Shown piece by piece: positions 7,001 to 21,245 of a stretch of DNA of 45,379 nt; the first letter of the stretch is position 1; every line of letters begins with the position of its first letter. The stretch is taken from contig DATLZO010000018.1 in assembly GCA_035573955.1 (NCBI GenBank), positions 1 to 45,379 of the forward strand, read 5' to 3'. The position numbers and the translations under genes were made by a program. Under the pieces are notes generated by a model. The model saw only the letters and a program-made list of their open reading frames with translations. It was not told where the DNA came from and did no database searches. The DNA is from Minisyncoccota bacterium (GTDB taxonomy: Bacteria > Patescibacteriota > Minisyncoccia > UBA6257 > GWB1-50-10).

Positions 7001-7798
7001 TTGAAAATGATTTTTCTCAACAAAAAAATCATGTCCCTTGCCATAATCGCGACCGGCATTGTTCTGGCCGTAATGATAAATGTTTCTTCCCCCGGCAAAA
7101 AAGAAAAGGGCTTTAAAATCTCTTACCCTAATAAAGAAACCAGCCCCAATCTGGCCTTTCAAATAAACAGAAAGATAAACCAGCCTTTCCCCTCCAATCC
7201 CTCTTCAAACGGAGATTCCTTGACTGACTCGATCGCCAGAGCATATTTGGAAAAAATCCTCCAGAACAACCCGTCGGGGGCGCAGAAATCAGGCGACCAA
7301 ACCCAGCTTGTCATCCCCTCAAACGCTTCCTTTGAGGAAATAATGCAGAACTACCTGAAAACCGGTCTTGTTTGGACGCGGTTCGAAATAAGCGACATTA
7401 AAATAAGCCAGGATAATTCCCCCAAAAACAAGATGTCCTACCTGGAAACCCTGCGAAACATTCTCAATGACAGGAAAAGAACAATAGACGCCGAATTCGG
7501 CGCCTTAACGAAATTTCTGGAAAACAGCGAATCGGCTGAATTTGAAAAATATGTTGCCGGGGTTCAGGAACAACTCGGCAAACTTCTCGCCTTAGCCGCT
7601 CCTTCCGAAATACGTCTTTTCCATCTCCAAGCAGTGAACGCTTGGCAACATCAGCTAGCCGTCTATAAAGCCATTCTCGCGATAAAAGAGGATCCGGCGC
7701 GGGCACTTCTCGGGATAAACGATTTAGCCAACATGGCCGACGAGTTGAGCAATATAAACCTCACCGTTCAAAAAGAATATGAATCGCTCAAATCTTAA
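7001..7798 (+). CDS. Membrane-anchored alpha-helical hypothetical protein (T4SS-like operon)
   Basis: TTG start (alternative ATG at 7007), one N-terminal TM helix and a helical C-terminal part. Overlaps the next gene by 20 nt. Confidence 0.75.
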   Translation: MKMIFLNKKIMSLAIIATGIVLAVMINVSSPGKKEKGFKISYPNKETSPNLAFQINRKINQPFPSNPSSNGDSLTDSIARAYLEKILQNNPSGAQKSGDQTQLVIPSNASFEEIMQNYLKTGLVWTRFEISDIKISQDNSPKNKMSYLETLRNILNDRKRTIDAEFGALTKFLENSESAEFEKYVAGVQEQLGKLLALAAPSEIRLFHLQAVNAWQHQLAVYKAILAIKEDPARALLGINDLANMADELSNINLTVQKEYESLKS

Positions 7799-9455
7799 AA
7801 CCAGTTCGGGCAAACTGCTTGCCGCCGCGCTGATTGTCTTTTTCATTAGCGGTTCAATTCCTCTCAAAACAAAGGCTCAATCGGAGAGAGTCCTTGCCCA
7901 ATGCGCCCAGGAAATTTTTGGCATCAATGTATCTTCTTTGACAGGAAACATCAGTGTAGATCCTTCCAGTATTCTTGGGGGAGTGCCAGTAAAAGACGAG
8001 GGAGTTAAGGGGAGGATCGAACAAGCGGAGCAGAAGAAGTGCGTCGACCGATTAATGGATTTAGCCGTAACTATTGCAAGAAACATTCTCAAAAAGCGGA
8101 TTTTAGACACGATCGTTGATCAAACCATTAATTGGATTCAGGGCGAGGGCACACCCCGGTTTGTCACCGACTTCGGCGGATTTATCGAGGATGCTGCCGA
8201 CGCGGCGGCAGGCGACGTCATTCAAGAATTGGGAGCGGGAGCGCTTTGCCAACCTTTCCGAACCCGACTTTTACTCCAGCTTCAAGAGCCGGCGCCGTTT
8301 TCCCAACAGGTCAGCTGTACTCTAAGCAATGTTGTCGATAATATCGAAAACTTCTACGACGATTTTTCCCAAGGAGGTTGGATTGCTTACAACGAGGTTA
8401 TCCGACCTCGGAACAATTATTTCGGCGCATTGATCCTTTCTCTCGATGAAATCTCGACTCGTAGGGCGGCGGCACAGGAAGCCGCCCGCACCGAGGCTAT
8501 TGCCGGCCAGGGTTTCCGTAGTGAAACGGAGTGTCTCCAGTGGACCGGCATGACGCCGGAGGGCGGGGAAGTGGTTGTTGAAGTAGACGATGATTTTCCT
8601 TATCGCAACCCTTTGGTGCCTCCGCCAACCGACGGTTTCCGGTTAGACCCCGGTTTTCCCTGGCGATGCACAAAGCAGACGGTTACCACCCCCGGCAACG
8701 TGATTGCCGCGACCACAAATCAAACTCTTGGTCTTCATTCCAATTTTATTATTAACGCCGACGACCTTACCGAATACGCCGCGGCGATAATTGATGCCGG
8801 CATCAACCGGTTGATAAGAGAGGGGGTTGGCGGCTTGCGGCGAATAACAACCCAGGCGACAAGCCGGGGTTTCTCGAGCGAGGAAGACCTGCCTGGTAAT
8901 TTGAGGGAGGCGGGAAGAGGTTACACCAGCGATTCGGAAAATCAGCGTTTGGGCCAAACAAGGACGAGCATTCTTAATAATCTTTCGGATACCTTAACCC
9001 GCCTTGAAGGAGCAAGAACTAATTACCAGGATGTGAAAGAAGCGTTCGACGAACTTGAGCTCCTTGGCGGGCTTTTCAAAACGTGGTGCGACAACACGAC
9101 CGGCGGAGCGCAAAACCGGACTCTCCACCCGACAACCTGCGAGAGTTACACTGACGCGACGCTTACGGCCTTGAACCAAAGAGCGAGTTCGACAAAGGGA
9201 TTGGTTGACGAAAAACTTGAAGAAATCGATCCCTTAATGAATAGAATCTCCGCTCTTATTCCGCAAATCCAAAACCTCAACACCTCAAACGCCGACGCTC
9301 TCGCCACCCAGGCGACTAATCTTCTCCAAGAAGCTTCGGCTATTATCAATGATTCTGTCTCCCTAGTTGAAGAAATCCAAACCGAGGTCGAGAATACCCG
9401 GGCGCTACTTTCAAGCTGCCAGAGTTCTACGCCCTCTCCCGGAAGTTGTCCTTGA
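7779..9455 (+). CDS. Large exported protein with Cys pairs and a coiled-coil C-terminus; candidate VirB5/TrbJ-position subunit
   Basis: Signal peptide, GVPVKD, IVDQTINWIQG..TPRFVTD, ALCQPF, VSCTL and TTPG, with long helical repeats at the C-terminus. Lies directly upstream of the VirB6-like gene. The function call is inference. Confidence 0.7.
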   Translation: MNRSNLKTSSGKLLAAALIVFFISGSIPLKTKAQSERVLAQCAQEIFGINVSSLTGNISVDPSSILGGVPVKDEGVKGRIEQAEQKKCVDRLMDLAVTIARNILKKRILDTIVDQTINWIQGEGTPRFVTDFGGFIEDAADAAAGDVIQELGAGALCQPFRTRLLLQLQEPAPFSQQVSCTLSNVVDNIENFYDDFSQGGWIAYNEVIRPRNNYFGALILSLDEISTRRAAAQEAARTEAIAGQGFRSETECLQWTGMTPEGGEVVVEVDDDFPYRNPLVPPPTDGFRLDPGFPWRCTKQTVTTPGNVIAATTNQTLGLHSNFIINADDLTEYAAAIIDAGINRLIREGVGGLRRITTQATSRGFSSEEDLPGNLREAGRGYTSDSENQRLGQTRTSILNNLSDTLTRLEGARTNYQDVKEAFDELELLGGLFKTWCDNTTGGAQNRTLHPTTCESYTDATLTALNQRASSTKGLVDEKLEEIDPLMNRISALIPQIQNLNTSNADALATQATNLLQEASAIINDSVSLVEEIQTEVENTRALLSSCQSSTPSPGSCP

Positions 9456-9457
9456 TC

Positions 9458-11002
9458 ATGAAGATTAACAAGAAACTGGTCTTGTGGGGAACGGTCGCGA
9501 TTATCTTTTTATTGGTACCTTTTCAAACTCACGCACAAGCAGGGTCTCTTGCGCGTAGTGTTGTTAACTCTCTAATCGATTTTACTGCCACTGCCGTTGG
9601 AAAACTGTTCTACGTCGCCGCCTGGATTTTCAGCTTTATCGGCGGCCTGTTCTTTGCCCTCGGCGCTTTCTTTACCAGGATCGGTTTGGAAATGAACTTC
9701 AGATTAATGTCGCCCGAAAACACTCTCCTCACAATCGGGTGGAAAATTGTGCGGGATATGGCTAATCTCGGCTTCGTCTTGATGATAATAGTGATAGCCA
9801 TCGCCACCATCATCCGCTACGAATCCTACGGCAACAAAAAAATACTGACGAAACTCATCGCGGCGGCGATTCTCGTGAACTTCAGTTTGACAATCGCCGG
9901 CATCTTCATTGATTTCTCCCACGTTCTCACAAAATTTTTCTTCCAAAAAATTTCGACCAATCCTGCCGAAATTGCTTCCACTCTTGCCGGCGCCTTCAAC
10001 CCCCAAAAATTTTTTACCCCTCCTCCGTCCGATGCCAGAGACGCCGACATTCGTGGACCAAACCCGTTGGAAGCGCTGGCCGTCAGTTCCGCTTCCTTGG
10101 TTTTCGTGGTTGTTTTCACGGCTTTGGGAGCTCTCACAATGTTTGCCACCGCCGCAATGCTCTTTTTAAGATATTTATGGCTCACGTTCCTTATTATCCT
10201 CTCGCCGATCGTCTGGCTTTTTTGGGTGATTCCCGCCCTGGAAGGGCAGTGGAAAAAATGGTGGGATAAATTTTTCCAGTGGGTTTTCTTTGCGCCGGCA
10301 ATTTCATTTTTCATCTATCTCGCCTTGCTTAGCGCGGAGGGTTTGAGGCAGACGGATCCAATCTACAACGCCGGAAATATCTTCGGCGGCATCACGGGAA
10401 TAGTGGCGACAGTCGCCTCAACTGGCGCCCAAATGACGGTTCTTGTGGGCATCCTGCTCGGCGGTTTAATTGCCGCGCAGAAAATGGGGATTACTGGAGC
10501 TACGGCAGCTGTCAAAGGAGCAACTAGTATGCTTAGTGGAGTAAAGGATTGGGCCAGTTACAGGACTGGAGCGGCTTTCAAGGGTAGTAGAGCCGCCGGT
10601 TTTGTCTCAAAAGCGGCTACAGGCCTACAAAAATTCAGCAACTGGAAACCTCAGGGTAAATTTGCAAGATACGCATCCGCACCATTTAGAGCCCCGCTCC
10701 AAGGCCTAGCGGGCGGATTAGCCACTCTAGCCCAAGGTCCTAAAGCTAAAGGAAAACCAACAACACTTGCTGGTTTCATGCTGAAAGGCGCCTTGACCGG
10801 CTCCGGACTATGGAAAAAACCCAGCAAGAAGGCGAGAGGCAAAACAGCATCTGGAGAAGACGTGGAAATCGATTTGCCCGAAGAAGAGGGGGGTGAAGAA
10901 GAAGGAGATAGCAAACCAGCTACAACACCACAACCGAAATCACCCTTACAGGAAATTGATACAGAAAGAGAACAACACGGTGAAAGGCAAATTAACCTAT
11001 GA
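9458..11002 (+). CDS. VirB6/TrbL-like polytopic membrane protein
   Basis: Likely ATG at 9458. Several TM helices with GWKIVRDMANLGFVL, LIAAAILVNFSL, LRYLWLTFLIILSPIVWL and WKKWWDKFFQWVFFAP, the typical VirB6-like core. Basic/acidic low-complexity tail. Confidence 0.75.
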   Translation: MKINKKLVLWGTVAIIFLLVPFQTHAQAGSLARSVVNSLIDFTATAVGKLFYVAAWIFSFIGGLFFALGAFFTRIGLEMNFRLMSPENTLLTIGWKIVRDMANLGFVLMIIVIAIATIIRYESYGNKKILTKLIAAAILVNFSLTIAGIFIDFSHVLTKFFFQKISTNPAEIASTLAGAFNPQKFFTPPPSDARDADIRGPNPLEALAVSSASLVFVVVFTALGALTMFATAAMLFLRYLWLTFLIILSPIVWLFWVIPALEGQWKKWWDKFFQWVFFAPAISFFIYLALLSAEGLRQTDPIYNAGNIFGGITGIVATVASTGAQMTVLVGILLGGLIAAQKMGITGATAAVKGATSMLSGVKDWASYRTGAAFKGSRAAGFVSKAATGLQKFSNWKPQGKFARYASAPFRAPLQGLAGGLATLAQGPKAKGKPTTLAGFMLKGALTGSGLWKKPSKKARGKTASGEDVEIDLPEEEGGEEEGDSKPATTPQPKSPLQEIDTEREQHGERQINL

Positions 11003-11946
11003 TCGATTATTTCTTAATAGACGAGAAAAAAATAAGAGAGAGAGCACAATCAGTGCCGAAAACAATCGAGGTTCTTTTGAATTCCGAAAACACCCAAAAA
11101 ACGGTCCAAAGAATAGCGCGTGAGCATTTTCTCGACGAAGAAAGAACCACGACCCTCAGCCAACTAACGGGGCTTGTGCTCTTGGGTTTTGTCTCTTTAG
11201 AAGATCTTGCTCACGAGATAAGCGAAAACCTTCCCTTAAATCAGGTTCATTCGCGGCAACTCACTGAAGATTTAAAAGCAGCGATCTTTGAACCTATAAA
11301 AAGAGATTTAGAAAGAGTATACGAACCGGTAAGTAGGTTTGAAACAAAAGAATTTGTTCCGGTACCAGAAAAAAAAGAATTTATCGCGGATGAAAAAACA
11401 CCATTGGAAAAGATCGGCCAGGAGGGAATTAAAACAGCAATAAAAATTGAAGTAAGAGAAAAAGAACCTCCAATCGAAGGAGCGCCGCTCATCATCCACA
11501 AAGAGGATAGCATGCCCGCGCCGGTGCAAACGGAGAAAAAATCTTTCAAAGGCTTGGAGTTCCCGTTCGGTTTTTTCGGAAAGGAATCCAAATCCGCTCC
11601 CTCCGAACCAGTAAAGGTCCGGGTGGAAGGACCGACAAGCCGCTCGAAGGAGCTGCATGTCAAAAAAGAAGAGAAAAAAGTCGTCCATTACAGCGAGCTC
11701 CGAACCCCCCTTACTCCTTTCCAGAAAGCGGGTGACGAAATAATAAACCTGGAAACCTTCGACCGAAAACCCGCCGGAGTCATAATACCAATACCCGAGG
11801 AAGAACCGGCGAAGGAGGTTCCGATAAAACCCGTCGCGGAAACAACGAGGTTACCGATAGAAACCGATCCGGGGCCGCCGAAAAACTCACCGGAGCCTAA
11901 ACCCGAACCTAAAATAGAAGGTAACATCGTTGACCTAAGACAGTAA
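10999..11946 (+). CDS. Cytoplasmic hypothetical protein (helical N-domain, disordered Pro/Glu/Lys-rich C-terminus)
   Basis: ATGA overlap with the upstream gene. LTGLVLLG...EDL..EI...L.L...L..D....IF.PIK pattern; no TM helix. Confidence 0.75.
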   Translation: MIDYFLIDEKKIRERAQSVPKTIEVLLNSENTQKTVQRIAREHFLDEERTTTLSQLTGLVLLGFVSLEDLAHEISENLPLNQVHSRQLTEDLKAAIFEPIKRDLERVYEPVSRFETKEFVPVPEKKEFIADEKTPLEKIGQEGIKTAIKIEVREKEPPIEGAPLIIHKEDSMPAPVQTEKKSFKGLEFPFGFFGKESKSAPSEPVKVRVEGPTSRSKELHVKKEEKKVVHYSELRTPLTPFQKAGDEIINLETFDRKPAGVIIPIPEEEPAKEVPIKPVAETTRLPIETDPGPPKNSPEPKPEPKIEGNIVDLRQ

Positions 11947-11948
11947 CA

Positions 11949-12443
11949 ATGTCAACCTTCCAAGTCCCCCAATTCATAGAACAAAAGGCAAGAATAGTCG
12001 GGCCCCTCACGCTCGAGCAGTTCCTATATATGGCGGTTGCCGGCGCCCTAAGTTTTATTTCTTATTACATCTTCAACTTTCTTTTCTGGTTCATGATAAG
12101 CGCCGTCATGTTCATTATTGCAATCGGTCTCGCGTTCGTGAAAATAAACGGCCAAAGCCTGCCGCAGGTCTTGAAAGCAGGCTTCTTATATGTTTGGAAT
12201 CCGCGAACTTACACCTGGCAACGGGCAGTGAAAATCGATAAAACCGACCTATCCGAATTGGAAAAACTGGAGGAGATTAGAAACCGGATAGGTTTCCAAC
12301 AAAAATTGAAATCGATCGCCCAAAACATCGCGACCGGCAAGATATTCTCTCCGAAGAAGCTGCGCGAGGAAGAAGGGGAACAATTCCAGGTCGTAACCCG
12401 ATTAACGGGGGAAAAAGAAGTAGCCAAACGAGTCAATTACTAA
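11949..12443 (+). CDS. PrgI family (VirB3-like) membrane protein
   Basis: FQVPQFIEQKARIVGPLTLEQF followed by two TM helices, then KINGQSL...YVWNPRTYTW. Lies upstream of the VirB4-like gene. Confidence 0.85.
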   Translation: MSTFQVPQFIEQKARIVGPLTLEQFLYMAVAGALSFISYYIFNFLFWFMISAVMFIIAIGLAFVKINGQSLPQVLKAGFLYVWNPRTYTWQRAVKIDKTDLSELEKLEEIRNRIGFQQKLKSIAQNIATGKIFSPKKLREEEGEQFQVVTRLTGEKEVAKRVNY

Positions 12444-12456
12444 TAAGATTATTAAA

Positions 12457-13104
12457 ATGCCGGAGGTTTCATTACCAACACAAAAATTCGTAGAGGTCGC
12501 CGATATCAAAAACGGCGTGGTTTACCTCAAGAGGGGTGGCCTGCGCAAGGTGCTGATAGTAGGTGGCATCAATTTCGACCTCAAATCCGAGGCCGAACAA
12601 AACCTCATTCTCCAAAGCTTCCAGAATTTTTTGAACACGCTCGATTTCGGCGTCCAGTTCTTCATTCACTCGCGAAAAATCAACATCAATGAATACCTCG
12701 AAAAATTGAGGGCGCGGAAAGAGGAAGAACAAAACGAGCTGCTCAAAGTCCAAATCGAAGACTATGCCGAGTTTATCAGGGCGTTCGTTGAAGAAAATTC
12801 TATCATCAGCAAAGATTTCTTTGTGGTCGTCCCATACGACCCGATCACCGTTGCCGCCCAAGCCAAGGGCTTACTTGGCCTTTTTAAGAAGGCGCCGACA
12901 AAAAAAGAGGAGACAGCCAAAGAAGAAAGAGATAGAAAAAATATCGAGGAATTGGAACAACGCGCAAATGAAGTCGTTAGCGGTCTTGAGCAAATAGGCC
13001 TCCGGGCAACGGCTCTCGAAGACGAGGAATTAATTGAACTCTTCTACAACCTTTACAACCCCCAACTCGTAGAGAAAAAAGATCTGGAGATAGCAAAAAA
13101 ATAA
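12457..13104 (+). CDS. TrsD/TraC-like accessory protein of the VirB4 module
   Basis: GINFDLKSEAEQ...FQNFLNTLDF.VQFFI.SRK, DFFVVVPY and ELFYNLYNP. Sits between prgI and virB4, 1 nt before the virB4 start. Confidence 0.7.
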   Translation: MPEVSLPTQKFVEVADIKNGVVYLKRGGLRKVLIVGGINFDLKSEAEQNLILQSFQNFLNTLDFGVQFFIHSRKININEYLEKLRARKEEEQNELLKVQIEDYAEFIRAFVEENSIISKDFFVVVPYDPITVAAQAKGLLGLFKKAPTKKEETAKEERDRKNIEELEQRANEVVSGLEQIGLRATALEDEELIELFYNLYNPQLVEKKDLEIAKK

Positions 13105-13105
13105 A

Positions 13106-14869
13106 ATGGAATACGATACCGACAAGATAAAAATTACCAAACCCTACACGCCGGGCGAGGAAGATATCCCGAACGTCATCGCACCGGCCGGGATGGAGGT
13201 AAATTCCAACTACCTGAAAATCGGTGACTATTTCGCGAAGACTTTTTTCGTCTTCACTTACCCTCGTTACGTCGCGAGCGGCTGGTTCTCGCCGGTCATC
13301 AATCTCGCCGAGATGATGGATATTTCAATTATCATCCATCCGATGGACACGGCACTCGCCTTAAAAAACCTCCGAAAGAAAGTGGCACAAGTGGAAGCGG
13401 AAATTGCCGAGAAACAGGAGAAAGGGCTTGTGCGCGACCCGATACTCGAAACAGCCTATCAGGATATCGAGAACCTCCGCGACGCCCTCCAACAAGCTCG
13501 GGAAAAACTTTTCGAAGTCGGCGTTTATATAACTATCTACAGCTCGAATCTGGAGAACTTGAATAAACTTGAGAAAACACTGGAAAATCTCCTCGAGAGC
13601 AAGTTGGTCTACATAAAACCTGCTCTCTTCCGGCATCTCGAAGGCTTCAATTCGGTGCTTCCCATCGCCCAAGACAGCCTTGGTGTCCGGACCCCATTGA
13701 ATTCGAGCCCCACCTCGTCGCTTTTCCCTTTCATCTCGCCGGATCTCACCTCTGACAAGGGCATCCTCTACGGCGTGAACCTCCACAACAATTCTCTCGT
13801 CATCTTCGACCGCTTTTCTCTCGAGAACGCAAACAGCGTCGTTTTCGCTAAATCCGGCAGCGGCAAATCATACACCACAAAACTCGAGATAATTCGATCA
13901 TTAATGATGGGCACGAACGTTATCGTCATTGACCCCGAGAATGAGTACGAGAACCTAGCGAACGCCGTGGGGGGGAGTTACTTCCGGATATCTCTCACCT
14001 CCCAGAACCACGTTAATCCCTTTGATATCCCCATCATCCCGCAAGGCGAGGAGCCGGCTGACGTCTTCAAATCGCACATCTTGAACCTCGCCGGTCTCGT
14101 AAAACTCATGCTCGGGGAAGTGACGCCCGAGGAAGACGCCATTTTGGACCGTGTTATCACCGAAACCTATGCCTCGCGCGACATCACCGCCGAAAATTTC
14201 GGCAAGATTGTGGAGCTCCGCCCGCTGCTCCTTGAAGATCTCCAGACCATTCTTCAAAACACCGAGGGCGGTCGGACGCTCGGAAACCGGCTCGATAAAT
14301 TTACTCATGGTTCCTACGCCGGTTTTACCAACGCGCCGACGAACGTTGATATCAAGAACCGCCTGATCGTCTTTTCCATCCGGGATCTGGAGGAAGAACT
14401 GCGGCCAATTGCAATGTATATCGTCCTCAATTTCGTCTGGAATCTGGTGAGAGGAGAACTTAGGCGGCGACTCCTTATAATCGATGAGGCTTGGTGGATG
14501 ATGAAATACAAGGATTCGGCATCTTTCCTTTTCGGTCTCGTGAAAAGGGCGAGAAAGTACTTTCTGGGCGTCACTACTATTACCCAAGACGTGGAAGATT
14601 TCTTGAGATCCGATTACGGCCGGCCCATTGTCACCAACTCCTCGCTCCAACTGCTGATGAAGCAGTCGCCAACTTCGATAAACTCGGTGGCCCAGGCTTT
14701 TAACTTGACCGAGGGTGAGAAAACTTTTCTTCTGGAATCGGCAGTCGGCGAGGGGCTTTTCTTTGCAGGATTAAAGCATGTGGCCATTAAAGTCATTGCT
14801 TCCTACACCGAGGACCAGATCATTACCACCAACCCGGAGCAGATACTGGAACAAAAGGGGTTAAAATAA
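13106..14869 (+). CDS. virB4: VirB4/TrsE-like conjugation/T4SS ATPase
   Basis: GILYGVN, DRFSLENANSVVF, Walker A AKSGSGKS, VIVIDPENEY, Walker B LLIIDEAW, KRARKY, TITQDVEDF and GEGLFF. Confidence 0.9.
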   Translation: MEYDTDKIKITKPYTPGEEDIPNVIAPAGMEVNSNYLKIGDYFAKTFFVFTYPRYVASGWFSPVINLAEMMDISIIIHPMDTALALKNLRKKVAQVEAEIAEKQEKGLVRDPILETAYQDIENLRDALQQAREKLFEVGVYITIYSSNLENLNKLEKTLENLLESKLVYIKPALFRHLEGFNSVLPIAQDSLGVRTPLNSSPTSSLFPFISPDLTSDKGILYGVNLHNNSLVIFDRFSLENANSVVFAKSGSGKSYTTKLEIIRSLMMGTNVIVIDPENEYENLANAVGGSYFRISLTSQNHVNPFDIPIIPQGEEPADVFKSHILNLAGLVKLMLGEVTPEEDAILDRVITETYASRDITAENFGKIVELRPLLLEDLQTILQNTEGGRTLGNRLDKFTHGSYAGFTNAPTNVDIKNRLIVFSIRDLEEELRPIAMYIVLNFVWNLVRGELRRRLLIIDEAWWMMKYKDSASFLFGLVKRARKYFLGVTTITQDVEDFLRSDYGRPIVTNSSLQLLMKQSPTSINSVAQAFNLTEGEKTFLLESAVGEGLFFAGLKHVAIKVIASYTEDQIITTNPEQILEQKGLK

Positions 14870-14873
14870 GGAT

Positions 14874-15254
14874 ATGGAGGACAAGAACAATAAAATCAGC
14901 GAGAGTGAGATGATAGTAATCGGCGGATTGATGTTTCTCACCGATGGTATTTGCCTCCTTATAGATTTCACCGTGGTGGGTCCGGCCTTCACTCCCGTCA
15001 TCCAAAGCGCGGCGACTTTCACGAGCGCCTGGTGGTTTAGTATGAAGGGCGATTCAAGCGCCTTTAATTTTGGGAAAATGGGGGCGCAGTTAGGCGCCAA
15101 CATCCTGCCGTGGCTCCCGACCCTCACCGTAGCTTTCGCCATTAATACTTTCACATTCAACCATCCTCGACTTACTAAAACTGTCGGTACCGTCGTAGGG
15201 AAAATCAAACCGTCGGCCGGAACCGCAGTTAAAATATTAAAGAAAGCGGCATGA
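14874..15254 (+). CDS. Small membrane protein (T4SS-like operon)
   Basis: 126 aa with two to three hydrophobic segments (..ILPWLPTLTVAF..). ATGA overlap with the next gene. Confidence 0.7.
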   Translation: MEDKNNKISESEMIVIGGLMFLTDGICLLIDFTVVGPAFTPVIQSAATFTSAWWFSMKGDSSAFNFGKMGAQLGANILPWLPTLTVAFAINTFTFNHPRLTKTVGTVVGKIKPSAGTAVKILKKAA

Positions 15255-15934
15255 GAAAATTTTCACAACTCCTAACAATTATTGTCACGGTATTGGCTGT
15301 TGGTTATTGGTTATCAACTGCCCGCGCTCAGTCGCCGACCCAAGTCATTATTACCTGGCAAGCCATAAACTTCTATCCGGCCGACTACAAAGGCAAGGCG
15401 GCGGTAACGCCGAGAACGCCGGTTGCGGTCGCGGCTGAAGTTTTAAAAAACGGAAAATTACTTGACTTGAAAAAATCAAATTTCACCTGGCTTCTCGACG
15501 AAAAACTTCTGGGTCGGGGCGAAGGATTGAAAGAAACATCGTTTACAGCGAAAAAGCCCGCTGGTGATAGCCACCTTCTCCGTTTGACGGTCAAATTTGA
15601 AAACGAGTCTTTTGAAAAAGCGGTTCGAATTCCGGTGGAACGGCCGCGGGTGGTGGTAAAAACCGGCCTTGCCAAAAACACCGTCGAGCCGGGGGGTAAA
15701 ATAAATCTCGTCGCAATACCCTATTTCTTTAATGTCAGTTCTCTTGATGGACTTAATTTCTCGTGGGAAATAAACGACGAGAAAATAGTCGGTCCTTCCT
15801 CTAATCAACTGACCTTGAATGTTGGTTCGCCGCAGAGCGAATCCCAAAAATCGATAAGAATAACATCGCTTATTCAAAACAGGACCAATATACTGGAATC
15901 GGCCAGTGAGACCGTCCAAATTAAAATGCCTTAA
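15251..15934 (+). CDS. Secreted protein with Ig/PKD-like beta-sandwich domains
   Basis: Signal peptide ending ARA-Q, IITWQA..FYP..YKGKA, FTWLLD, AIPYFF and FSWEIND; alternating beta-strand pattern. Confidence 0.7.
   Translation: MRKFSQLLTIIVTVLAVGYWLSTARAQSPTQVIITWQAINFYPADYKGKAAVTPRTPVAVAAEVLKNGKLLDLKKSNFTWLLDEKLLGRGEGLKETSFTAKKPAGDSHLLRLTVKFENESFEKAVRIPVERPRVVVKTGLAKNTVEPGGKINLVAIPYFFNVSSLDGLNFSWEINDEKIVGPSSNQLTLNVGSPQSESQKSIRITSLIQNRTNILESASETVQIKMP
15291..15318 (+). repeat. Degenerate 7-nt array in a signal-peptide coding region
   Basis: TATTGGC-TGTTGGT-TATTGGT-TATCAAC (VLAVGYWLST). Confidence 0.55.
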
Positions 15935-15936
15935 AA

Positions 15937-17097
15937 ATGAAAAGAAACATTTCCAAAATATGTCTGTTTATTTTGACAATCGCGTTCGTCGGTTTCTTAG
16001 GCAACGTTAACCAAGCCAGAGGATTGGAATTTGACCTCAATTACACGCCGCCTTGCATCGGCGGAGAGGTTGGAGGTAATTGTCCTTCTGATGAGCAAAT
16101 TAGTGGCAGTATTGCCTCCTATATCAAAAGAATCTACATGTTCAGCGTCGGTATCGCCGGAGTGCTTGCGGTCGGAATGATTGTGGTCGGGGCAATTATG
16201 ATCTCCGTTTCGGCCGGTAACCCCGACAAACAGCGGGAAGGCCGCGACTACATCACTTCCGCCCTCTGGGGTGTAGCGCTCCTTTTAGGCTCCTACCTGA
16301 TTTTGAGGACCATCAACCCGCGGTTAGTGAACTTGAGCGAATTGGAAAGAACAACAAGGGAAGCGAGGCAAGTAAGAATATTAACGTACGAGCTGGCCGC
16401 AGGAGCCGCTACAACCACTTGTCCGACTGAAGGCCAAACCGGTTGTTTTTTTAATGAAAATAATGAAGCTTGTCCTTTTGATCTGACAAGTGACGCGGTT
16501 TGTACCTCTTTGGATTCAAGAACATCGGCGTGTGATAACGTTCCGGATACTAATGCCGCAGGTGAAACCCTTTCCCCTTCCCCGCGATACCCCTGCGCTT
16601 GTTGGAATTGCAAAGTTCTAAATACGGCCGACTATCCTGTCAAAACAGGAGCTTGTCCCGGCACTTTGGCAAGGTGCTTCCTAGAAGAGGATACCTTGGA
16701 TGCCTTTAAGGATTTCATTGAAGAATTAAGGGATTTCCCTTCAATCCGGTTGGGTTCAGACGGACCGGGAGTATGGAGGGTAACGGAAGCCTTCCCGCCC
16801 GCCGTACGGCATTCCTCCCTCTCCCACTACAACGGTCGCGGTTTTGACTTCGGCCGGGGCGGAACAAACTTCCCAACATTCCCTTCCCCGACGGACGCGG
16901 GTTTCTGCAATGAGATTCGCCTCATAGCCACGGCGGCGGCCAGGCAATTTAATAGAATTTACATAGAAGCTCTTCCGGACAACTACTGCAGGGATTTGAA
17001 TCCCCCAACCAATCCCATACAGGGATTAACGGGCGTCGAACGACGGACATTTCAGACAACAACTGGTTTTCACATTCATGTGGAAAATCCAAAGTAA
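15937..17097 (+). CDS. VirB2/TrbC-type (T4SS) pilin fused via a Cys-rich linker to a LAS/M15-like zinc peptidase domain
   Basis: Signal peptide. Pilin hairpin YIKRIYMFSVGIAGVLAVGMIVVGAI..SAGNPDK..EGRDYITSALWGVALLLGSYLILRTINP.L. Ten Cys in the linker. C-terminal WRVTEAFPP, H297-x6-D304 (HYNGRGFD) and H379-x-H381 (FHIHVE). Confidence 0.8.
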   Translation: MKRNISKICLFILTIAFVGFLGNVNQARGLEFDLNYTPPCIGGEVGGNCPSDEQISGSIASYIKRIYMFSVGIAGVLAVGMIVVGAIMISVSAGNPDKQREGRDYITSALWGVALLLGSYLILRTINPRLVNLSELERTTREARQVRILTYELAAGAATTTCPTEGQTGCFFNENNEACPFDLTSDAVCTSLDSRTSACDNVPDTNAAGETLSPSPRYPCACWNCKVLNTADYPVKTGACPGTLARCFLEEDTLDAFKDFIEELRDFPSIRLGSDGPGVWRVTEAFPPAVRHSSLSHYNGRGFDFGRGGTNFPTFPSPTDAGFCNEIRLIATAAARQFNRIYIEALPDNYCRDLNPPTNPIQGLTGVERRTFQTTTGFHIHVENPK

Positions 17098-17103
17098 TCA
17101 GCT

Positions 17104-18234
17104 ATGAAATCTGTTCAAAAAAAACTAATATTATCGGTAATCATTGTGATTATCTTAAGTCTTGGTTTCTACCTGATTTGGAAAAAGATTGCCGGCACAC
17201 AAGAGGGTGATGATTTTCTGCCAGCAAACGGTTTTCCGGAAAATCCTTTAGACGGCGGTGATGTTACGAAAACATCCGCTGGACCAACTCTTAAGAGGTT
17301 ATCCGACCAGGAAGTCACCGATTTTTGGTTGGTTGAAGAAACCGGAGAAATTTACTACATAAATTATTCGGGCAATATCCTTATCGCCAAAGACGGTCCC
17401 GATTTGGAGGTCTCAAAACAGAACGTGAGCGCGATAAATTCCTCCGAAACAAGTCCGTCTACAAGAAAAATTCTCGTTGCTTTTAGCGATCCTCTCTCGC
17501 CCCAGTGGGGAATTTTTGACATCTTTGATAAAGTCTGGCGGCCACTACCTTCCGAAATATTGGTTGCTTCTTGGGGGGCAAGCGATGACAAGTTAGTCGC
17601 ATTGGTAAAAAATAGCGGTAAAACAGATTTGGTTGAAGTCGATCTGACCAAAACACCGCCCGCTAACAAAATCTTGTTGGGTGATTTTGGGTTTAAGGAT
17701 ATTCGTCTCATCTTTAACCCGCCGGACAAGATTCTTATCGTCGAGAAAACTTCGGCTGATTATCAAGGTAGGTTATGGCAATTCAATATCTTAACTCAAA
17801 ACTTAAATCTTATGATATCAGGAGAAAAAGGTCTTTCACTTTACGCCTCGCCGCAGAAGGATTTTTTTCTTAAATATTCTTCTGATAATGGTTTGGATAT
17901 TCTAACTCCTGAGCTCGCACCAACAATGGAGTCTCCATTAAACACTCTTCCGCAAAAATGCGGTTTTGGTGAGGGTGCGGCAATATATTGTTTTGAACCA
18001 ATAGTTTGGCCTCCCGACGCCGAGTTGCCGGATGACTATCTTGTGGGGAAAATATACACTGTCGATGATTTATTTGAGATAGACCCGCTGGGCGAAGGTC
18101 GTTACAGCAGAGTCTTTAGAAGTGGTGAAAATAACCTTCAGTTGGTTGATGGTGAAAAACCTACGCTGGCGGGGGGAAATGTTTATTTCGTGAATAGGTT
18201 TGATAACCGACTCTACTCGGTGACGCTACCGTGA
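17104..18234 (+). CDS. Membrane-anchored extracellular protein, probable beta-propeller
   Basis: One N-terminal TM helix, then repeated short beta-strand blades (SPSTRKIL, SWGASDDKL, ASPQKD), a PQKC...YC motif and DDY. Confidence 0.65.
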   Translation: MKSVQKKLILSVIIVIILSLGFYLIWKKIAGTQEGDDFLPANGFPENPLDGGDVTKTSAGPTLKRLSDQEVTDFWLVEETGEIYYINYSGNILIAKDGPDLEVSKQNVSAINSSETSPSTRKILVAFSDPLSPQWGIFDIFDKVWRPLPSEILVASWGASDDKLVALVKNSGKTDLVEVDLTKTPPANKILLGDFGFKDIRLIFNPPDKILIVEKTSADYQGRLWQFNILTQNLNLMISGEKGLSLYASPQKDFFLKYSSDNGLDILTPELAPTMESPLNTLPQKCGFGEGAAIYCFEPIVWPPDAELPDDYLVGKIYTVDDLFEIDPLGEGRYSRVFRSGENNLQLVDGEKPTLAGGNVYFVNRFDNRLYSVTLP

Positions 18235-18235
18235 T

Positions 18236-18667
18236 TTAAGAGATGTGTTTGATTATCACCCGACGTTCCTTATTGAGGCCTACGCTCTCAGTTGTTAGTT
18301 CCGGGTGGGTAGTTATCTCCATATGGATCAGCCGGCGCTCGTAGGCGTTCATTGGGGGGAGTTCCACATCGGATTTGGTAAGCATCGCTTTGTGAGCGGC
18401 AGCTCGCGCGAGCTCGGTGATCAGCCGTTCTCGCTCTTTGCGATAGTAATTTAAATCGACAACATAGGGGCCGTTATTCTCGCCTTTTACCATCAAATTC
18501 AGAATATGCTCAATCGCTGGCAAAACAACCGCCACTCTTGATTGAATGAGATCGTCATCAATGAAAAGGGAGATCTTGCGGTGTTCCGCGTCAAGCTCCA
18601 CCCGCGGTTCCTCGAAACCCATTAGGGCCACCATTTTCTTTGTTTTTTGAATCAGATTCTCGGTCAT
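18236..18667 (-). CDS. jag: Short Jag/KhpB(EloR)-like KH-R3H RNA-binding protein
   Basis: VVDLNYYRKERE, LPPMNAYERRLIH (R3H) and TESVG...ERRVII; canonical position after yidC. Confidence 0.85.
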   Translation of the reverse strand: MTENLIQKTKKMVALMGFEEPRVELDAEHRKISLFIDDDLIQSRVAVVLPAIEHILNLMVKGENNGPYVVDLNYYRKERERLITELARAAAHKAMLTKSDVELPPMNAYERRLIHMEITTHPELTTESVGLNKERRVIIKHIS

Positions 18668-19334
18668 GGGTTAGTTTCGGCAATTTTTTATTGATAATAA
18701 CCTGCTGTAAGAGAGAAAACAAGGTCGAGGCCGACCAGTAGATTCCAAGCGCCGCAGGAAAATTTAAGAGGATAACAAATGTAAAGGCCGGCGCCACATA
18801 CACCATCATCTTCATTTGAAAGAACATTTGTCCGCTGCGCTCACTTTTCGGCTGCGCGCCCATTGTCATCTTTCCCAAGAGATATTGCAGAAGAGCGGCA
18901 ACAACAGCGAGTAGAACACTCTTTGATCCGAGATCGAGAATTCCAAGGAAATCGTGCGCCGTGAAAATGTTATTGCCAATTTCCTTCAAGAAAATCTGGT
19001 AGAGAGCGATTAAGATCGGTAGTTGGATAAGAAGTAAAAGAAAACCAGAAAAGGGGTTTAGGCGATGTTTTTTATATAGGTCCATGAGCGCTCTGGCCTG
19101 CTGTTCTTTATTGTCCTTATGATCAAGTTGAATTTTCTGGATATGAGGTTGAAGCCGTTGCATCAAACTCTGATCTTTGGCGCTCTTGTAAAATAAAGGG
19201 AAAAGAACAAGCCGAACCAAGAAGGTTAAAAGAATTATGGAAACGCCGAGGTCGTGAAAAGCGATATTTTGGTAGATAAAAACCAAAACCGCGAGGAGTG
19301 GTTCATAAAGGTACGTATTGAAGATTTCGCTCAT
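18591..19334 (-). CDS. yidC: YidC/Oxa1 membrane protein insertase (short form)
   Basis: YEPLL, DLGVSIILLT..VRLVLFPL, LQP.I..IQ, NPFSGFL..LIQLPILIALY and FPAALGIYW. Confidence 0.95.
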   Translation of the reverse strand: MSEIFNTYLYEPLLAVLVFIYQNIAFHDLGVSIILLTFLVRLVLFPLFYKSAKDQSLMQRLQPHIQKIQLDHKDNKEQQARALMDLYKKHRLNPFSGFLLLLIQLPILIALYQIFLKEIGNNIFTAHDFLGILDLGSKSVLLAVVAALLQYLLGKMTMGAQPKSERSGQMFFQMKMMVYVAPAFTFVILLNFPAALGIYWSASTLFSLLQQVIINKKLPKLTHDRESDSKNKENGGPNGFRGTAGGA

Positions 19335-19576
19335 TTTATGCTCTCCAAAATCTCTCTCTTAATATCGGCGAAGGTGGCTTCGGCTGCTCCTGGTCTCGCA
19401 ATAACCGAAAAATAACCTTCTTTTTCCTTTAAAATTGGTCTCATTACCGCCCTGATCCGCCGTTTCAGAAGGTTCCTTGTGACTGCTTTCCTCGCGACGC
19501 CTTTCCCAATTGATATAACCAAACGTCCGCCCGAGACTCCTTGAAATCTCCTCCTAACAATGATGAGGGGTGGCAT
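19331..19576 (-). CDS. rnpA: RNase P protein subunit, N-terminally shortened (81 aa)
   Basis: RLVISIGKGVARKAVTRNLLKRRIR (RNR-type motif); lies between rpmH and yidC. Confidence 0.85.
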   Translation of the reverse strand: MPPLIIVRRRFQGVSGGRLVISIGKGVARKAVTRNLLKRRIRAVMRPILKEKEGYFSVIARPGAAEATFADIKREILESIK

Positions 19577-19579
19577 CTC

Positions 19580-19717
19580 TCAGACGGCGAGTTGTTTCCT
19601 GCCTTTCCGGCGCCTCCGCCTTAAAACGGATCGGCCGCTTGGTTTACTTTGCCTTGAGAGGAATCCGTGAGTAGATTTTCTTTTCCTTTTATTCGGTTGA
19701 TACGTTCTTTTGGGCAT
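19580..19717 (-). CDS. rpmH: 50S ribosomal protein L34 (not in the ORF track)
   Basis: Hand translation [45 protein letters not shown], with KRTYQP and HGF motifs; divergent from dnaA. Confidence 0.97.
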
Positions 19718-19776
19718 GGGTTAATGAAACTATCTTTGAAAAATTATTGCAAGCCGACCTTGTCTCGCTCCACAAC

Positions 19777-19785
19777 TTATTCACA
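19777..19785 (+). promoter_or_regulatory. DnaA box upstream of dnaA
   Basis: TTATTCACA matches the consensus TT(A/T)TNCACA. Confidence 0.75.
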
Positions 19786-19865
19786 ATTAAAACACAAATC
19801 TCTTTTTGCATCAATGTTGCAACGGAACGATAATTCCTTATCATAGTAGAACCGAGACAAATCTC

Positions 19866-21245
19866 ATGGACCCGAAAGAAATTTGGCAAACAGTGTTGGG
19901 CGAGATAGAACTCCAGATATCTAGGCCGAATTTCCTGACTTGGTTAAAACAAAGCGAACTCCTCAATAAAGATGAGAAGGAGGGGACGGCGCTTGTTGGA
20001 CTCCCTAATAATTTCGCTAAAGAATGGGTCCGCAACCGTTATCACAAGATAATCCTTGGTTCTCTCCGCAACATTGATGGTTCCATTAAGAACATTGATT
20101 ATGTGGTTGTGAACCACACCAATCAAACTACCCAACTGAACCAACTGAAGAAACCGCGCGGCACAAAAAGTCCTTCGGTTCCCCAGCCGACGCTTTTGGA
20201 AACAAGAGTGGATCCCAAAACCAATTTGAATCCCAAGTACACTTTGGATTCGTTTGTTGTTGGGTCATCGAATGAATTGGCTTACGCCGCGATTCAGGCG
20301 GTAACAAAAGACGTGGGTCGGAAATACAACCCTCTCTTTGTTTACGGCGGTGTGGGTTTGGGTAAAACACACCTTATCCAAGCTGGGGGGAATGAAATCG
20401 TCAAAAACCATGGTTCCAAAAATGTTTTATATGTTTCCTCAGAAAAGTTCATAAACGATGTTGTTTGGGCCATTCGCAACAAACGGATGGAAGATATGAA
20501 AAGAAAATACCGGGATACTGATGTCCTTATAATCGATGATATCCAATTCATCGGCGGTAAGGCTTCAACCGAGCAGGAATTCTTCTACACCTTTAACGTC
20601 CTTCATGAGAATTCCAAGCAGATAATAATTTCCTCCGACCGGCCGCCGGCGGCAATTCCCACCCTTGAAGAACGTTTGAGGTCGCGTTTTGAGGGAGGGA
20701 TGATAGTGGATATAGGCTATCCGGATTATGAGATGCGGCTCGCTATCTTAAGAACCAAAGTCCAAGATCACGGTTGGGTGGTTGAAGAAAAAACCTTGGA
20801 ATCAATTGCCACTAAGGTCCAGCGGAACATTCGGGAATTGGAGGGGGTTTTAAATAAAGTCGTCTTTTACGAACAGTACAAGAACGAGAAAATAGACGCG
20901 AAGAAACTAGACGAGATAATAAGCGAAACTACCCAACTCGCGGCTAAAAACATCACGGTTGGTAATGTTGTAAATGCCGTCGCCGAGTTCTTTGAGGTGT
21001 CGGCAAGTGATTTGACCGGTCGGAGCCGTAAGAGCGAGGTTGTTGAACCGAGGCAGATTTGTATGTACCTTCTCCGTGACATCCTAAAGTTGTCGTACCC
21101 TCACATCGGCGAGAAGTTGGGTAACCGCGACCACACAACTGCAATCCACGCCTGCGAAAAAATTACCAAAGATATTAACCAAAACCCCTCACTAAACCAA
21201 AAGATCATGCTTATTAAAGAAAGGTTGTATAAAAACGGGGGATAA
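19866..21245 (+). CDS. dnaA: Chromosomal replication initiator DnaA
   Basis: Likely start ATG at 19866 (MDPKEIWQ). LNPKYTLDSFVVG.SNELA, YNPLFVYGGVGLGKTHL, LIIDDIQF, RLRSRFEGG, NIRELEG and RDHTTAIHA. Confidence 0.98.
   Translation: MDPKEIWQTVLGEIELQISRPNFLTWLKQSELLNKDEKEGTALVGLPNNFAKEWVRNRYHKIILGSLRNIDGSIKNIDYVVVNHTNQTTQLNQLKKPRGTKSPSVPQPTLLETRVDPKTNLNPKYTLDSFVVGSSNELAYAAIQAVTKDVGRKYNPLFVYGGVGLGKTHLIQAGGNEIVKNHGSKNVLYVSSEKFINDVVWAIRNKRMEDMKRKYRDTDVLIIDDIQFIGGKASTEQEFFYTFNVLHENSKQIIISSDRPPAAIPTLEERLRSRFEGGMIVDIGYPDYEMRLAILRTKVQDHGWVVEEKTLESIATKVQRNIRELEGVLNKVVFYEQYKNEKIDAKKLDEIISETTQLAAKNITVGNVVNAVAEFFEVSASDLTGRSRKSEVVEPRQICMYLLRDILKLSYPHIGEKLGNRDHTTAIHACEKITKDINQNPSLNQKIMLIKERLYKNGG

What the first reader, a model, noticed from the sequence alone, without database searches (positions are those of the whole stretch)
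15937..17097. T4SS pilin fused to a Cys-knotted stalk and an intact-looking LAS/M15 zinc peptidase: a pilus-displayed cell-wall hydrolase
One polypeptide joins a VirB2/TrbC-type pilin hairpin (aa ~58-135), a linker with 10 Cys, and a C-terminal domain with H297-x6-D304 plus H379-x-H381. That is the zinc-ligand signature of the LAS fold (D-Ala-D-Ala peptidases, L-Ala-D-Glu endolysins, Hedgehog-N). It is the only pilin and the only hydrolase in the operon, so it may replace a separate VirB1. If incorporated into the filament, it would put a peptidoglycan-cutting enzyme on the host wall, a plausible breaching tool for an epibiont. This is the strongest candidate for an undescribed system here.
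Basis: partly seen in the sequence, partly recalled or inferred. Interest (0 to 1): 0.85.

Follow-up and report, generated by a model that had tools for sequence, protein, structure and literature searches.

The report
Pilin-anchored zinc cell-wall peptidase
In the type IV secretion operon of an ultrasmall (Patescibacteria) bacterium, one gene joins a pilus-subunit-like membrane hairpin to an outward-facing zinc peptidase of the Hedgehog/cell-wall DD-peptidase kind; this large family, which I did not find described in the papers searched, probably supplies the wall-cutting activity these secretion systems seemed to lack.

Summary
ORF 15937-17097 (+, 386 aa) encodes these parts:
- a signal peptide;
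- a VirB2-type two-helix hairpin (Pfam T4SS_pilin, aa 58-117);
- a flexible tether;
- a stalk with exactly 10 Cys;
- a C-terminal domain with H297-x6-D304, E344 and H379-x-H381.

A profile of the C-terminal domain matches Hedgehog N-domains in the PDB (E 1.6e-6), with the zinc and catalytic residues aligned. Its AlphaFold model matches MepA best (probability 0.97, but E 7e-3). No Pfam M15 model matches, so this is an unnamed LAS-type family.

The domain occurs in 812 clusters at 50% identity, and 120 of the top 137 carry the hairpin. The gene keeps a fixed slot (VirB4, 126 aa, 227 aa, this gene, 376 aa, then dnaA). In relatives the same slot holds the same hairpin with other heads, including M15_4, VanY, M23, SLT, NlpC/P60, CHAP and many unknown ones.

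"Only pilin" is wrong for the genome: three short pilins lie in tandem elsewhere. An M23/LysM peptidase lies 1.3 kb upstream of the operon.

My best reading is that this is the T4SS's own VirB2-like subunit, carrying a tethered wall peptidase that stands in for VirB1. Display on a pilus against a host wall is possible but untested. I class it as a new variant of a known kind.

The parts
15937..17097 (+). Whole gene: pilin-hairpin / Cys-rich stalk / LAS zinc-peptidase fusion, 386 aa plus stop
   Evidence: ORF list and translation. It lies 2 nt after the upstream gene and 6 nt before the downstream gene.
15937..16023 (+). Sec-type signal peptide, about aa 1-29 (MKRNISKICLFILTIAFVGFLGNVNQARG)
   Evidence: Read from the sequence: a basic N-terminus, a hydrophobic core and a small-residue end. 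AlphaFold helix 2-26. The cleavage site is inferred.
16024..16107 (+). Short N-terminal outside segment with the conserved C40...C49 pair
   Evidence: The P-C-x(n)-G-x-C pattern is conserved in most of the homologues (alignment A1).
16108..16335 (+). VirB2-type pilin hairpin, aa 58-133: two transmembrane helices, a charged loop (NPDKQREGRD) and an invariant T-I-N-P exit motif
   Evidence: PF18895 at aa 58-117. AlphaFold helices 59-91 and 96-126, pLDDT about 90. Foldseek match to the Aeropyrum conjugative pilin 8dfu, probability 0.91, TM 0.69. Mean pairwise identity is 64%, against 31% for the enzyme head.
16336..16410 (+). Flexible tether, aa 134-158
   Evidence: pLDDT below 50 at aa 135-157. 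Poorly conserved.
16411..16677 (+). Cys-rich stalk, aa 159-247, with 10 Cys
   Evidence: Cys positions. C189, C199, C222, C240 and C247 are at least 90% conserved. pLDDT 72-92 with short strands. VKOR and a DsbA-like oxidoreductase are present in the genome.
16678..17094 (+). Hedgehog/DD-peptidase-like LAS zinc-peptidase head, aa 248-386: E284, H292, H297-x6-D304, C324, E344, C351, H379-x-H381
   Evidence: Profile A2 against the PDB hits Shh/Ihh/Dhh N-domains at E 1.6e-6, with H297=H141, D304=D148, H292=H135 and E344=E177. Domain model pLDDT 86, pTM 0.84. Foldseek top hit is MepA 1tzp, probability 0.97. Conservation.
7001..18234 (+). Surrounding T4SS operon: VirB6-like 9446-11002, PrgI/VirB3-like 11949-12443, TrsD-like 12457-13104, VirB4 13106-14869, conserved unknowns 14874-15254 (126 aa), 15251-15934 (227 aa) and 17104-18234 (376 aa)
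   Evidence: Pfam and NCBIfam hits. The same gene order occurs in relatives, ending at jag/yidC/rnpA/dnaA.

Best explanation
The gene encodes the T4SS operon's own VirB2-like subunit with a cell-wall peptidase attached.

After Sec export and signal-peptide removal, the two-helix hairpin sits in the cytoplasmic membrane with both ends outside. The C-terminal part is therefore extracytoplasmic. It consists of a tether of about 25 residues, a probably disulfide-stabilised stalk, and a Hedgehog/DD-peptidase-type LAS zinc domain.

I propose three steps:
1. The hairpin docks on the VirB6-like/VirB4 platform, as VirB2 does in other T4SSs.
2. This concentrates the zinc peptidase at the assembly site.
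3. The peptidase cuts peptide stems or cross-links of peptidoglycan (which bond is unknown) and opens the producer's wall for the conduit. That is the job done by VirB1-like hydrolases (PrgK, TraG of pIP501, CwlT) in other monoderm T4SSs.

Shown here: the architecture, the inferred topology, conservation of the active-site residues, LAS/Hedgehog homology, the fixed operon slot, and the family-wide exchange of wall-hydrolase heads.

Inferred: zinc binding, peptidoglycan as substrate, docking on the machine, and which wall is cut.
For: Architecture:
- PF18895 hairpin plus signal peptide.

Active site:
- Complete Hh/DD-peptidase set (H292, H297-x6-D304, E344, H379-x-H381), conserved in 24 homologues and in the wider set of 137 representatives, where HxxGxxxD occurs in 130 and the upstream His in 128.

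Homology of the head:
- Profile-to-PDB hit to Hedgehog-N at E 1.6e-6, with ligands aligned.
- Foldseek best match is MepA, a murein DD-endopeptidase, probability 0.97; Dhh-N scores 0.84.

Operon association:
- Strict synteny VirB6-like...PrgI, TrsD-like, VirB4, 126 aa, 227 aa, this gene, 376 aa, in relatives.
- 58 of 84 related loci have VirB4 within 6 kb.
- No other recognisable hydrolase in the operon.

Wall-directed function of the heads:
- Sister proteins with the same hairpin carry Amidase_2, SLT, Glucosaminidase, M15_4, VanY, M23, NlpC/P60, CHAP or 3D heads, all wall hydrolase families.
- About 6 of 137 heads sit on a plain single-TM anchor, so the head can work from the membrane.

Specific role for the hairpin:
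- It is far more conserved than the enzyme (64% against 31% mean pairwise identity), which argues for specific protein contacts rather than a passive anchor.

Literature:
- Most Patescibacteria with VirB2 homologues lack a detectable VirB1 (PMC12102498).
Against: - No enzymology exists for any member of the family.
- Structural matches are weak (no Foldseek E below 1e-3; TM 0.48 to MepA), and no Pfam M15 model hits.
- The 3D proximity of the ligands could not be measured.
- Hedgehog-N itself is mainly a ligand, so an intact LAS site does not prove wall hydrolysis.
- An M23/LysM peptidase 1.3 kb upstream could serve as the wall hydrolase instead.
- The very high conservation of the hairpin, and cargo-free pilins in the same slot in a few genomes (L050, L059, L078), fit a true polymerising pilin at least as well as a docking anchor.
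Confidence: 0.55

Rival explanations
1. It is a true modular pilin. The hairpin polymerises, along the shaft or at the tip of a VirB2-type filament or conduit, together with or instead of the short array pilins. The peptidase heads then sit on the outer surface and cut the partner or host cell's wall.
For: - In all solved conjugative pili both termini lie on the outside of the tube (preprint 10.64898/2025.12.18.695078), so a C-terminal head would be displayed.
- The hairpin is the most conserved part, rich in small-residue packing positions.
- It occupies the operon's only pilin slot, and a few relatives have a cargo-free pilin there.
- The hairpin fold matches an archaeal conjugative pilin.
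- Head diversity is extreme, 46 sequence clusters among 97 cargos, as expected for parts that meet varied foreign walls.
Against: - No filament has been seen for these proteins.
- A head-plus-stalk of about 250 aa on every subunit is sterically demanding. This is my estimate from published pilus geometry, not a computation.
- Three ordinary short pilins exist in the genome and are the more obvious filament subunits.
- Some heads sit on a plain TM anchor.
- The lifestyle and host of this organism are unknown.
Confidence: 0.25
2. It is a pro-protein. The chain is cut just after the invariant T-I-N-P motif at the membrane exit. This releases a soluble secreted peptidase and leaves an ordinary short VirB2-like pilin.
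For: - The [TS][IVL]NP motif at the end of helix 2 occurs in 71 of 96 long cargo carriers and in none of the genome's three short pilins.
- A disordered tether follows it.
- C-terminal processing of VirB2-family pilins (RP4 TrbC, VirB2 cyclisation) is established knowledge.
Against: No protease candidate or cleavage evidence was found. The motif may simply be a helix cap or a packing element. This is pure inference.
Confidence: 0.08
3. The head is a non-catalytic binding module, used as an adhesin or wall-binding domain in the way Hedgehog-N is used as a ligand. Alternatively, the protein is a housekeeping DD-carboxypeptidase with no role in the T4SS.
For: - The closest sequence relatives in the PDB are Hedgehog ligands.
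- In 46 of 137 representatives no H-x-H was found; many of these keep the second His with Asn in place of the first (N-x-H).
Against: - The zinc ligands, the general-base Glu and the H292 equivalent are all retained here and almost everywhere in the family. Drosophila Hh, the known inactive case, has lost them (PMC6027127).
- Strict conservation of the slot inside the T4SS operon argues against a housekeeping role.
Confidence: 0.07

Closest known systems
VirB1-like wall hydrolases of monoderm T4SSs: PrgK (pCF10), TraG (pIP501), TcpG (pCW3), CwlT (ICEBs1)
   Same: All are encoded in the T4SS operon near virB4. They are membrane-anchored with the enzyme outside. Their presumed job is local opening of the wall for the channel.
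   Different: Those enzymes use SLT/muramidase, CHAP/NlpC-P60 or LytM domains on a simple N-terminal TM anchor. Here the catalytic domain is a Hedgehog-type LAS zinc peptidase, and the anchor is a signal peptide plus a VirB2-type pilin hairpin. No sequence homology to VirB1 families was found.
Hh/DD-peptidase group of the LAS fold: Hedgehog N-domain, bacterial Hh-like proteins, Streptomyces albus Zn DD-carboxypeptidase (M15A), MepA (M74)
   Same: It shares H-x6-D, the general-base Glu, H-x-H, the extra upstream His, and the same order of strands and helices (family definition from PMC6027127).
   Different: - About 31% or less identity within its own family, and only a profile-level match to Hedgehog.
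- An insertion of about 30 residues, with a conserved C324-C351 pair, between the Glu strand and the H-x-H strand.
- No Pfam M15 or HH_signal hit for this protein on its own.
- Only E284, aligned with Shh E127, hints at the Hedgehog Ca2+ site. This was not tested further.
VirB2/TrbC/TraA conjugative pilins, Pfam PF18895 T4SS_pilin, and the VirB2-like pilin arrays of Patescibacteria (S. epibionticum, N. lyticus); PrgF of pCF10
   Same: It has a signal peptide, two TM helices and a short charged loop. It is encoded beside virB4. The fold resembles a solved conjugative pilin.
   Different: - Canonical pilins are about 70-150 aa with no enzyme attached.
- This one carries about 250 extra C-terminal residues.
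- Its hairpin belongs to a distinct, strongly conserved subtype. The genome's own array pilins score 35, 19 and no bits against it, while cargo carriers from other genera have a median of 68 bits.
Structural subunits fused to wall hydrolases in other machines: FlgJ (flagellar rod cap plus glucosaminidase), VgrG3 (T6SS spike plus hydrolase), phage T4 gp5 and phi29 gp13 tail lysins
   Same: They follow the same design principle. A part of the penetrating structure carries the enzyme that clears peptidoglycan in its path. This comparison rests on established knowledge, not on a test here.
   Different: The folds and machines are unrelated. In the present case incorporation into a structure is unproven.

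Membership tests
Pfam PF18895 T4SS_pilin / VirB2-like pilins | Match to the family HMM at or above the gathering score (26.6 bits) | tested here: inconclusive
   The protein scan gives 24.7 bits, E 2.6e-5. The six-frame genome scan of the same stretch gives 28.1 bits and is flagged as over the cut-off. 114 of 137 family representatives hit PF18895.
Pfam PF18895 T4SS_pilin / VirB2-like pilins | Signal peptide followed by two transmembrane helices joined by a short charged loop | tested here: met
   Sequence reading plus AlphaFold helices 59-91 and 96-126, with loop NPDKQREGRD.
Pfam PF18895 T4SS_pilin / VirB2-like pilins | Fold similar to a solved conjugative pilin | tested here: met
   Foldseek match to 8dfu (Aeropyrum pernix conjugation pilus): probability 0.91, TM 0.69, rmsd 2.0 over 68 columns. 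The E-value is weak at 1.6 because the motif is short.
Pfam PF18895 T4SS_pilin / VirB2-like pilins | Encoded in a T4SS cluster with virB4 | tested here: met
Pfam PF18895 T4SS_pilin / VirB2-like pilins | Polymerises into a pilus | not testable with these tools
   This needs multimer modelling with the VirB6-like protein, or microscopy.
LAS fold, Hh/DD-peptidase group | H-x6-D zinc-ligand motif | tested here: met
   H297 and D304 are invariant in 24 homologues. HxxGxxxD occurs in 130 of 137 representatives. They align to Shh H141 and D148.
LAS fold, Hh/DD-peptidase group | H-x-H motif giving the third ligand | tested here: met
   H379 and H381 are present and at least 90% conserved in close homologues. 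In the wider set H-x-H occurs in 91 of 137; many of the others keep the second His with Asn in place of the first.
LAS fold, Hh/DD-peptidase group | General-base Glu (Shh E177 equivalent) | tested here: met
   E344 aligns with E177. It is invariant in A3.
LAS fold, Hh/DD-peptidase group | LAS fold with the three ligands brought together | tested here: inconclusive
   Domain model pLDDT 86. Best Foldseek hits are the LAS members MepA (probability 0.97, E 7e-3, TM 0.48) and Dhh-N (0.84). BFVD gives weak M15/M15A hits. Coordinates are not exposed, so ligand distances were not measured.
LAS fold, Hh/DD-peptidase group | Zinc-dependent peptidase activity | not testable with these tools
   Requires biochemistry.
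Pfam M15 families (VanX, VanY, Peptidase_M15_2/3/4) | Match to any M15 HMM | tested here: not met
   This protein has no M15 hit at E up to 0.1. None of 22 head domains hit M15 at E up to 1; six hit HH_signal weakly. It is therefore not filed as M15.
VirB1-like T4SS hydrolases | SLT/lysozyme-like or CHAP/NlpC-P60 catalytic domain homologous to VirB1, TrsG or CD419 | tested here: not met
   This protein has no such Pfam or NCBIfam hit. The similarity is in role and position only.

The most novel reading that the evidence does not exclude
The VirB2-type conduit of the Patescibacteria T4SS is an enzymatically armed structure. The operon's own pilin polymerises on the VirB6-like platform with its exchangeable wall-hydrolase heads on the outside. 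The growing tube would then cut its way through the producer's wall and then a partner's wall. The great diversity of heads would track the wall chemistries of different partners.
Probability: 0.2. Interest if true: 0.85.

Novelty: new variant of a known kind. Interest (0 to 1): 0.65.

Why it matters
The T4SS is essential in the one Patescibacterium tested (Southlakia epibionticum), its function is unknown, and most of these genomes seem to lack a VirB1 hydrolase (PMC10633639, PMC12102498, PMC11665869).

A conserved pilin-hydrolase fusion in the operon's pilin slot offers an explanation for the apparently missing VirB1. It also ties the puzzling VirB2-like proteins of a monoderm lineage to wall breaching.

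It gives concrete experiments: enzyme assays with point mutants, localisation, and multimer models with the VirB6-like protein.

It also defines a large bacterial family of Hedgehog-like LAS domains with no Pfam model of its own: 812 clusters at 50% identity. That bears on the origin of the Hedgehog N-domain.

Tried and rejected
- Single-sequence phmmer against the PDB found nothing. Only the profile of the head domain worked.
- Foldseek with the full-length model was dominated by helical-hairpin look-alikes and did not find the head, so the head was modelled alone.
- Pfam, NCBIfam and PHROGs give no M15, VanY or endolysin hit for this protein. I therefore rejected filing it as M15/VanY.
- Profiles of the conserved neighbours (227 aa and 376 aa) found nothing significant in the PDB. 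The 126-aa, 265-aa, 558-aa and 315-aa operon proteins also stay unassigned.
- The 'Novel Pilus System in CPR' preprint (PMC13278184) describes unrelated Ig-like Pam pili.
- I considered a housekeeping carboxypeptidase and a non-catalytic Hedgehog-like ligand. I rated both low because of the fixed T4SS slot and the fully conserved catalytic set.
Full report
**Observation**

The window has an open frame at 15937-17097 (+) of 386 aa. It starts 2 nt after the upstream gene, and the downstream gene starts 6 nt after it.

It also confirmed 15 Cys, of which exactly ten lie between aa 162 and 247. The described anatomy is in the sequence.

**Pilin module**

- Pfam T4SS_pilin (PF18895) matches aa 58-117 at 24.7 bits, just under the 26.6 gathering score.
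- The six-frame scan of the whole genome scores the same stretch at 28.1 bits, over the cut-off.
- The full-length AlphaFold model (pLDDT 78.5) gives a signal-peptide helix, then two long helices at 59-91 and 96-126 with pLDDT about 90. They are joined by the charged loop NPDKQREGRD.
- Foldseek aligns this hairpin to the conjugative pilin of Aeropyrum pernix (8dfu): probability 0.91, TM 0.69, rmsd 2.0 Å. The E-value is weak, as expected for 68 helical residues.
- With a cleaved signal peptide and two membrane passes, both ends face outward. Everything after aa 133 is therefore extracytoplasmic. This is inferred from topology rules.

**Enzyme head**

The protein alone hits nothing in the PDB and no M15 family in Pfam.

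A profile of aa 236-386 from 22 homologues (A2) hits Sonic, Indian and Desert Hedgehog N-domains at E 1.6e-6 to 1e-3. In that alignment:

| This protein | Mouse Shh | Role in Shh |
|---|---|---|
| H297 | H141 | zinc ligand |
| D304 | D148 | zinc ligand |
| H292 | H135 | extra upstream His |
| E344 | E177 | general base |

The roles of H141, D148, H183 and E177 are as given in PMC6027127.

The H-x-H (H379, H381) lies about 30 residues further on than in Hedgehog, after an insertion that holds the conserved C351. The order of strands and helices is otherwise the same.

The head modelled alone is confident (pLDDT 86, pTM 0.84). Its best PDB match is MepA, the LAS-fold murein DD-endopeptidase (probability 0.97, E 7e-3, TM 0.48), followed by Hedgehog N-domains. 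Viral structures give only weak M15/M15A matches.

Conservation supports an active enzyme:
- H297, Y298 and D304 are invariant in 24 homologues. H292, E284, E344, H379 and H381 are at least 90% conserved.
- E284, H292, D304 and E344 are invariant columns in 137 representatives.
- HxxGxxxD occurs in 130 of 137 and the upstream His in 128. H-x-H occurs in 91; many of the rest keep the second His with Asn in place of the first.

I conclude that the head is a divergent LAS zinc peptidase with no Pfam model of its own, nearest to the Hh/DD-peptidase group. It is not a member of any Pfam M15 family. I could not measure ligand distances because coordinates are not exposed.

**Stalk**

- aa 135-157 are disordered in the model (pLDDT below 50).
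- aa 159-247 form a strand-rich segment of moderate confidence.
- Five of its ten Cys (C189, C199, C222, C240, C247) are at least 90% conserved.
- The genome encodes a VKOR homologue (87 bits) and a DsbA-like thioredoxin (70 bits), so extracytoplasmic disulfides are plausible.
- The actual pairing, and the word 'knot', remain interpretation.

**Context**

The gene sits in a co-oriented operon, in this order:
- VirB6-like membrane protein (9446-11002)
- PrgI/VirB3-like (11949-12443)
- TrsD-like piece (12457-13104)
- VirB4 (13106-14869)
- conserved unknowns of 126 aa and 227 aa
- this gene
- a conserved 376-aa protein

Downstream lie jag, yidC and dnaA. This matches the origin-proximal T4SS described for Patescibacteria (PMC12102498).

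The same order, gene for gene, surrounds homologues P0015 and P0010. Among loci fetched from species-representative genomes plus those, 58 of 84 loci with this hairpin type have VirB4 within 6 kb. That includes 12 of the 14 that carry the Hedgehog-type head. No other operon protein matches a hydrolase family.

**Family picture**

- The head profile finds 812 clusters at 50% identity with E up to 1e-3, and 171 with E up to 1e-10.
- Of the top 137, 114 hit PF18895 and 120 hit a hairpin HMM built here.
- Eleven of the other 17 are N-terminally truncated fragments. About six carry the head on a plain single-TM anchor.
- Two also carry a Glucosaminidase domain and one an SLT domain.

The same hairpin subtype also carries other heads:
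- Amidase_2 and SLT (P0055, P0058).
- Peptidase_M15_4, VanY, M23, 3D, SLT, SLT_2, NlpC/P60 and CHAP.
- Many heads have no Pfam match. The 97 heads fall into 46 sequence clusters.

A few genomes have a cargo-free pilin in the same slot (L050, L059, L078).

The hairpin is much better conserved than anything it carries: 64% mean pairwise identity, against 31% for the head and 26% for the stalk. It ends in a [TS][IVL]NP motif in 71 of 96 long carriers.

- The genome (592 kb, 26 contigs) has three more PF18895 genes of 129-142 aa. They lie in tandem on another contig, beside a solute-binding-like protein and gyrA.
- All 41 related genomes have 1-9 PF18895 genes, typically a short-pilin array plus one or two long ones.
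- The own array pilins score only 35, 19 and no bits against the carrier-type hairpin HMM, while carriers from other genera have a median of 68 bits. The carrier is therefore a separate subtype.
- An M23+LysM peptidase lies at 4656-5687 (-), 1.3 kb upstream of the operon. So this is not the only wall enzyme nearby.

**Mechanism**

What is shown is an outward-facing LAS peptidase with an intact active-site motif set. It is tethered to a VirB2-type hairpin and fixed in the pilin slot of a monoderm-type T4SS operon. Its family exchanges wall-hydrolase heads.

My best reading (0.55) is that the hairpin docks on the VirB6-like/VirB4 platform as VirB2 does. The tethered peptidase then opens the producer's wall for the conduit, which is the VirB1 role. 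From the membrane, a 25-residue tether and a small stalk reach only the producer's own wall.

Rival readings:
1. True incorporation into a filament, with heads displayed outward (0.25). This is compatible with the fact that both pilin termini lie outside in all solved conjugative pili (preprint 10.64898/2025.12.18.695078), with the exceptional hairpin conservation, and with cargo-free pilins in the slot. A 250-aa load per subunit is demanding, and ordinary short pilins exist elsewhere in the genome.
2. Cleavage after the TINP motif, releasing a soluble enzyme (0.08). This is speculative.
3. A non-catalytic or housekeeping role (0.07). This fits the conserved catalytic set and the fixed T4SS slot poorly.

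**Comparison and novelty**

- In role and position it resembles PrgK, TraG, TcpG and CwlT. It shares neither their catalytic domains nor their simple anchor.
- In chemistry it resembles Hedgehog-N, bacterial Hh-like proteins, M15A DD-peptidase and MepA.
- In its anchor it resembles VirB2 and PF18895.
- The design principle of a structural subunit carrying the wall enzyme is known from FlgJ, VgrG3 and phage tail lysins.

The papers I could search describe VirB2-like pilins and arrays in Patescibacteria and remark on the missing VirB1. I found no mention of pilin-hydrolase fusions (PMC12102498, PMC10633639, PMC12857230, PMC11665869). That search covers only the held library.

Earlier notes of this scan report the same family in other genomes. 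I treated them as leads and re-derived the core points here.

I class this as a new variant of a known kind, with interest 0.65.

Noticed in passing
G000 contig C10 (locus L005) 8800-13864, minus strand: Three short PF18895 pilins (142, 129 and 133 aa) lie in tandem next to a 442-aa solute-binding-like protein and gyrA, far from the T4SS operon.
   Followed up: partly
window 4656-5687 (-): A secreted Peptidase_M23 with two LysM domains lies 1.3 kb upstream of the T4SS operon, in the opposite orientation. It is separated from the operon by ksgA (5716-6507) and a 137-aa ORF. It could be a general division enzyme or a second T4SS-associated wall enzyme.
   Followed up: no
window 12457-14869 (+): The VirB4 function is split into a 215-aa TrsD/TraC-N-like protein and a 587-aa P-loop protein that starts 2 nt later. 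The same split is seen in relatives (L006, L008).
   Followed up: partly
window 14874-15934 and 17104-18234 (+): Three proteins (126 aa membrane; 227 aa secreted, beta-rich; 376 aa TM-anchored, possibly propeller-like) flank the fusion gene in nearly all related loci. They match no Pfam, NCBIfam, PHROGs or PDB profile.
   Followed up: partly
L012 5905-6831, L016 5911-6819 and proteins P0013, P0022, P0034, P0037: In the closest Jorgensenbacteria-type relatives the same slot and hairpin carry a different Cys-rich head of about 170-200 aa with no Pfam match. It partly shares the PGIDCLP...ACGxxERAC stalk repeats with the LAS-bearing proteins.
   Followed up: no
L034 9080-10465; L075 5815-7239; L067 2494-6246; L069 1923-5855: Odd architectures occur in the same hairpin family. 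One protein has three hairpins and one has two. A 1250-aa protein has the hairpin at its very C-terminus. A 1310-aa protein has a head of about 1190 aa.
   Followed up: no
G000 C24:2421-2789 (L088) and C16:956-1420 (L089): A VKOR homologue and a DsbA-like thioredoxin are present in this 592-kb genome. That fits the many Cys-rich exported proteins.
   Followed up: partly
window 18236-21245: The T4SS operon abuts the jag (R3H), yidC and dnaA region, so it sits next to the likely replication origin.
   Followed up: partly
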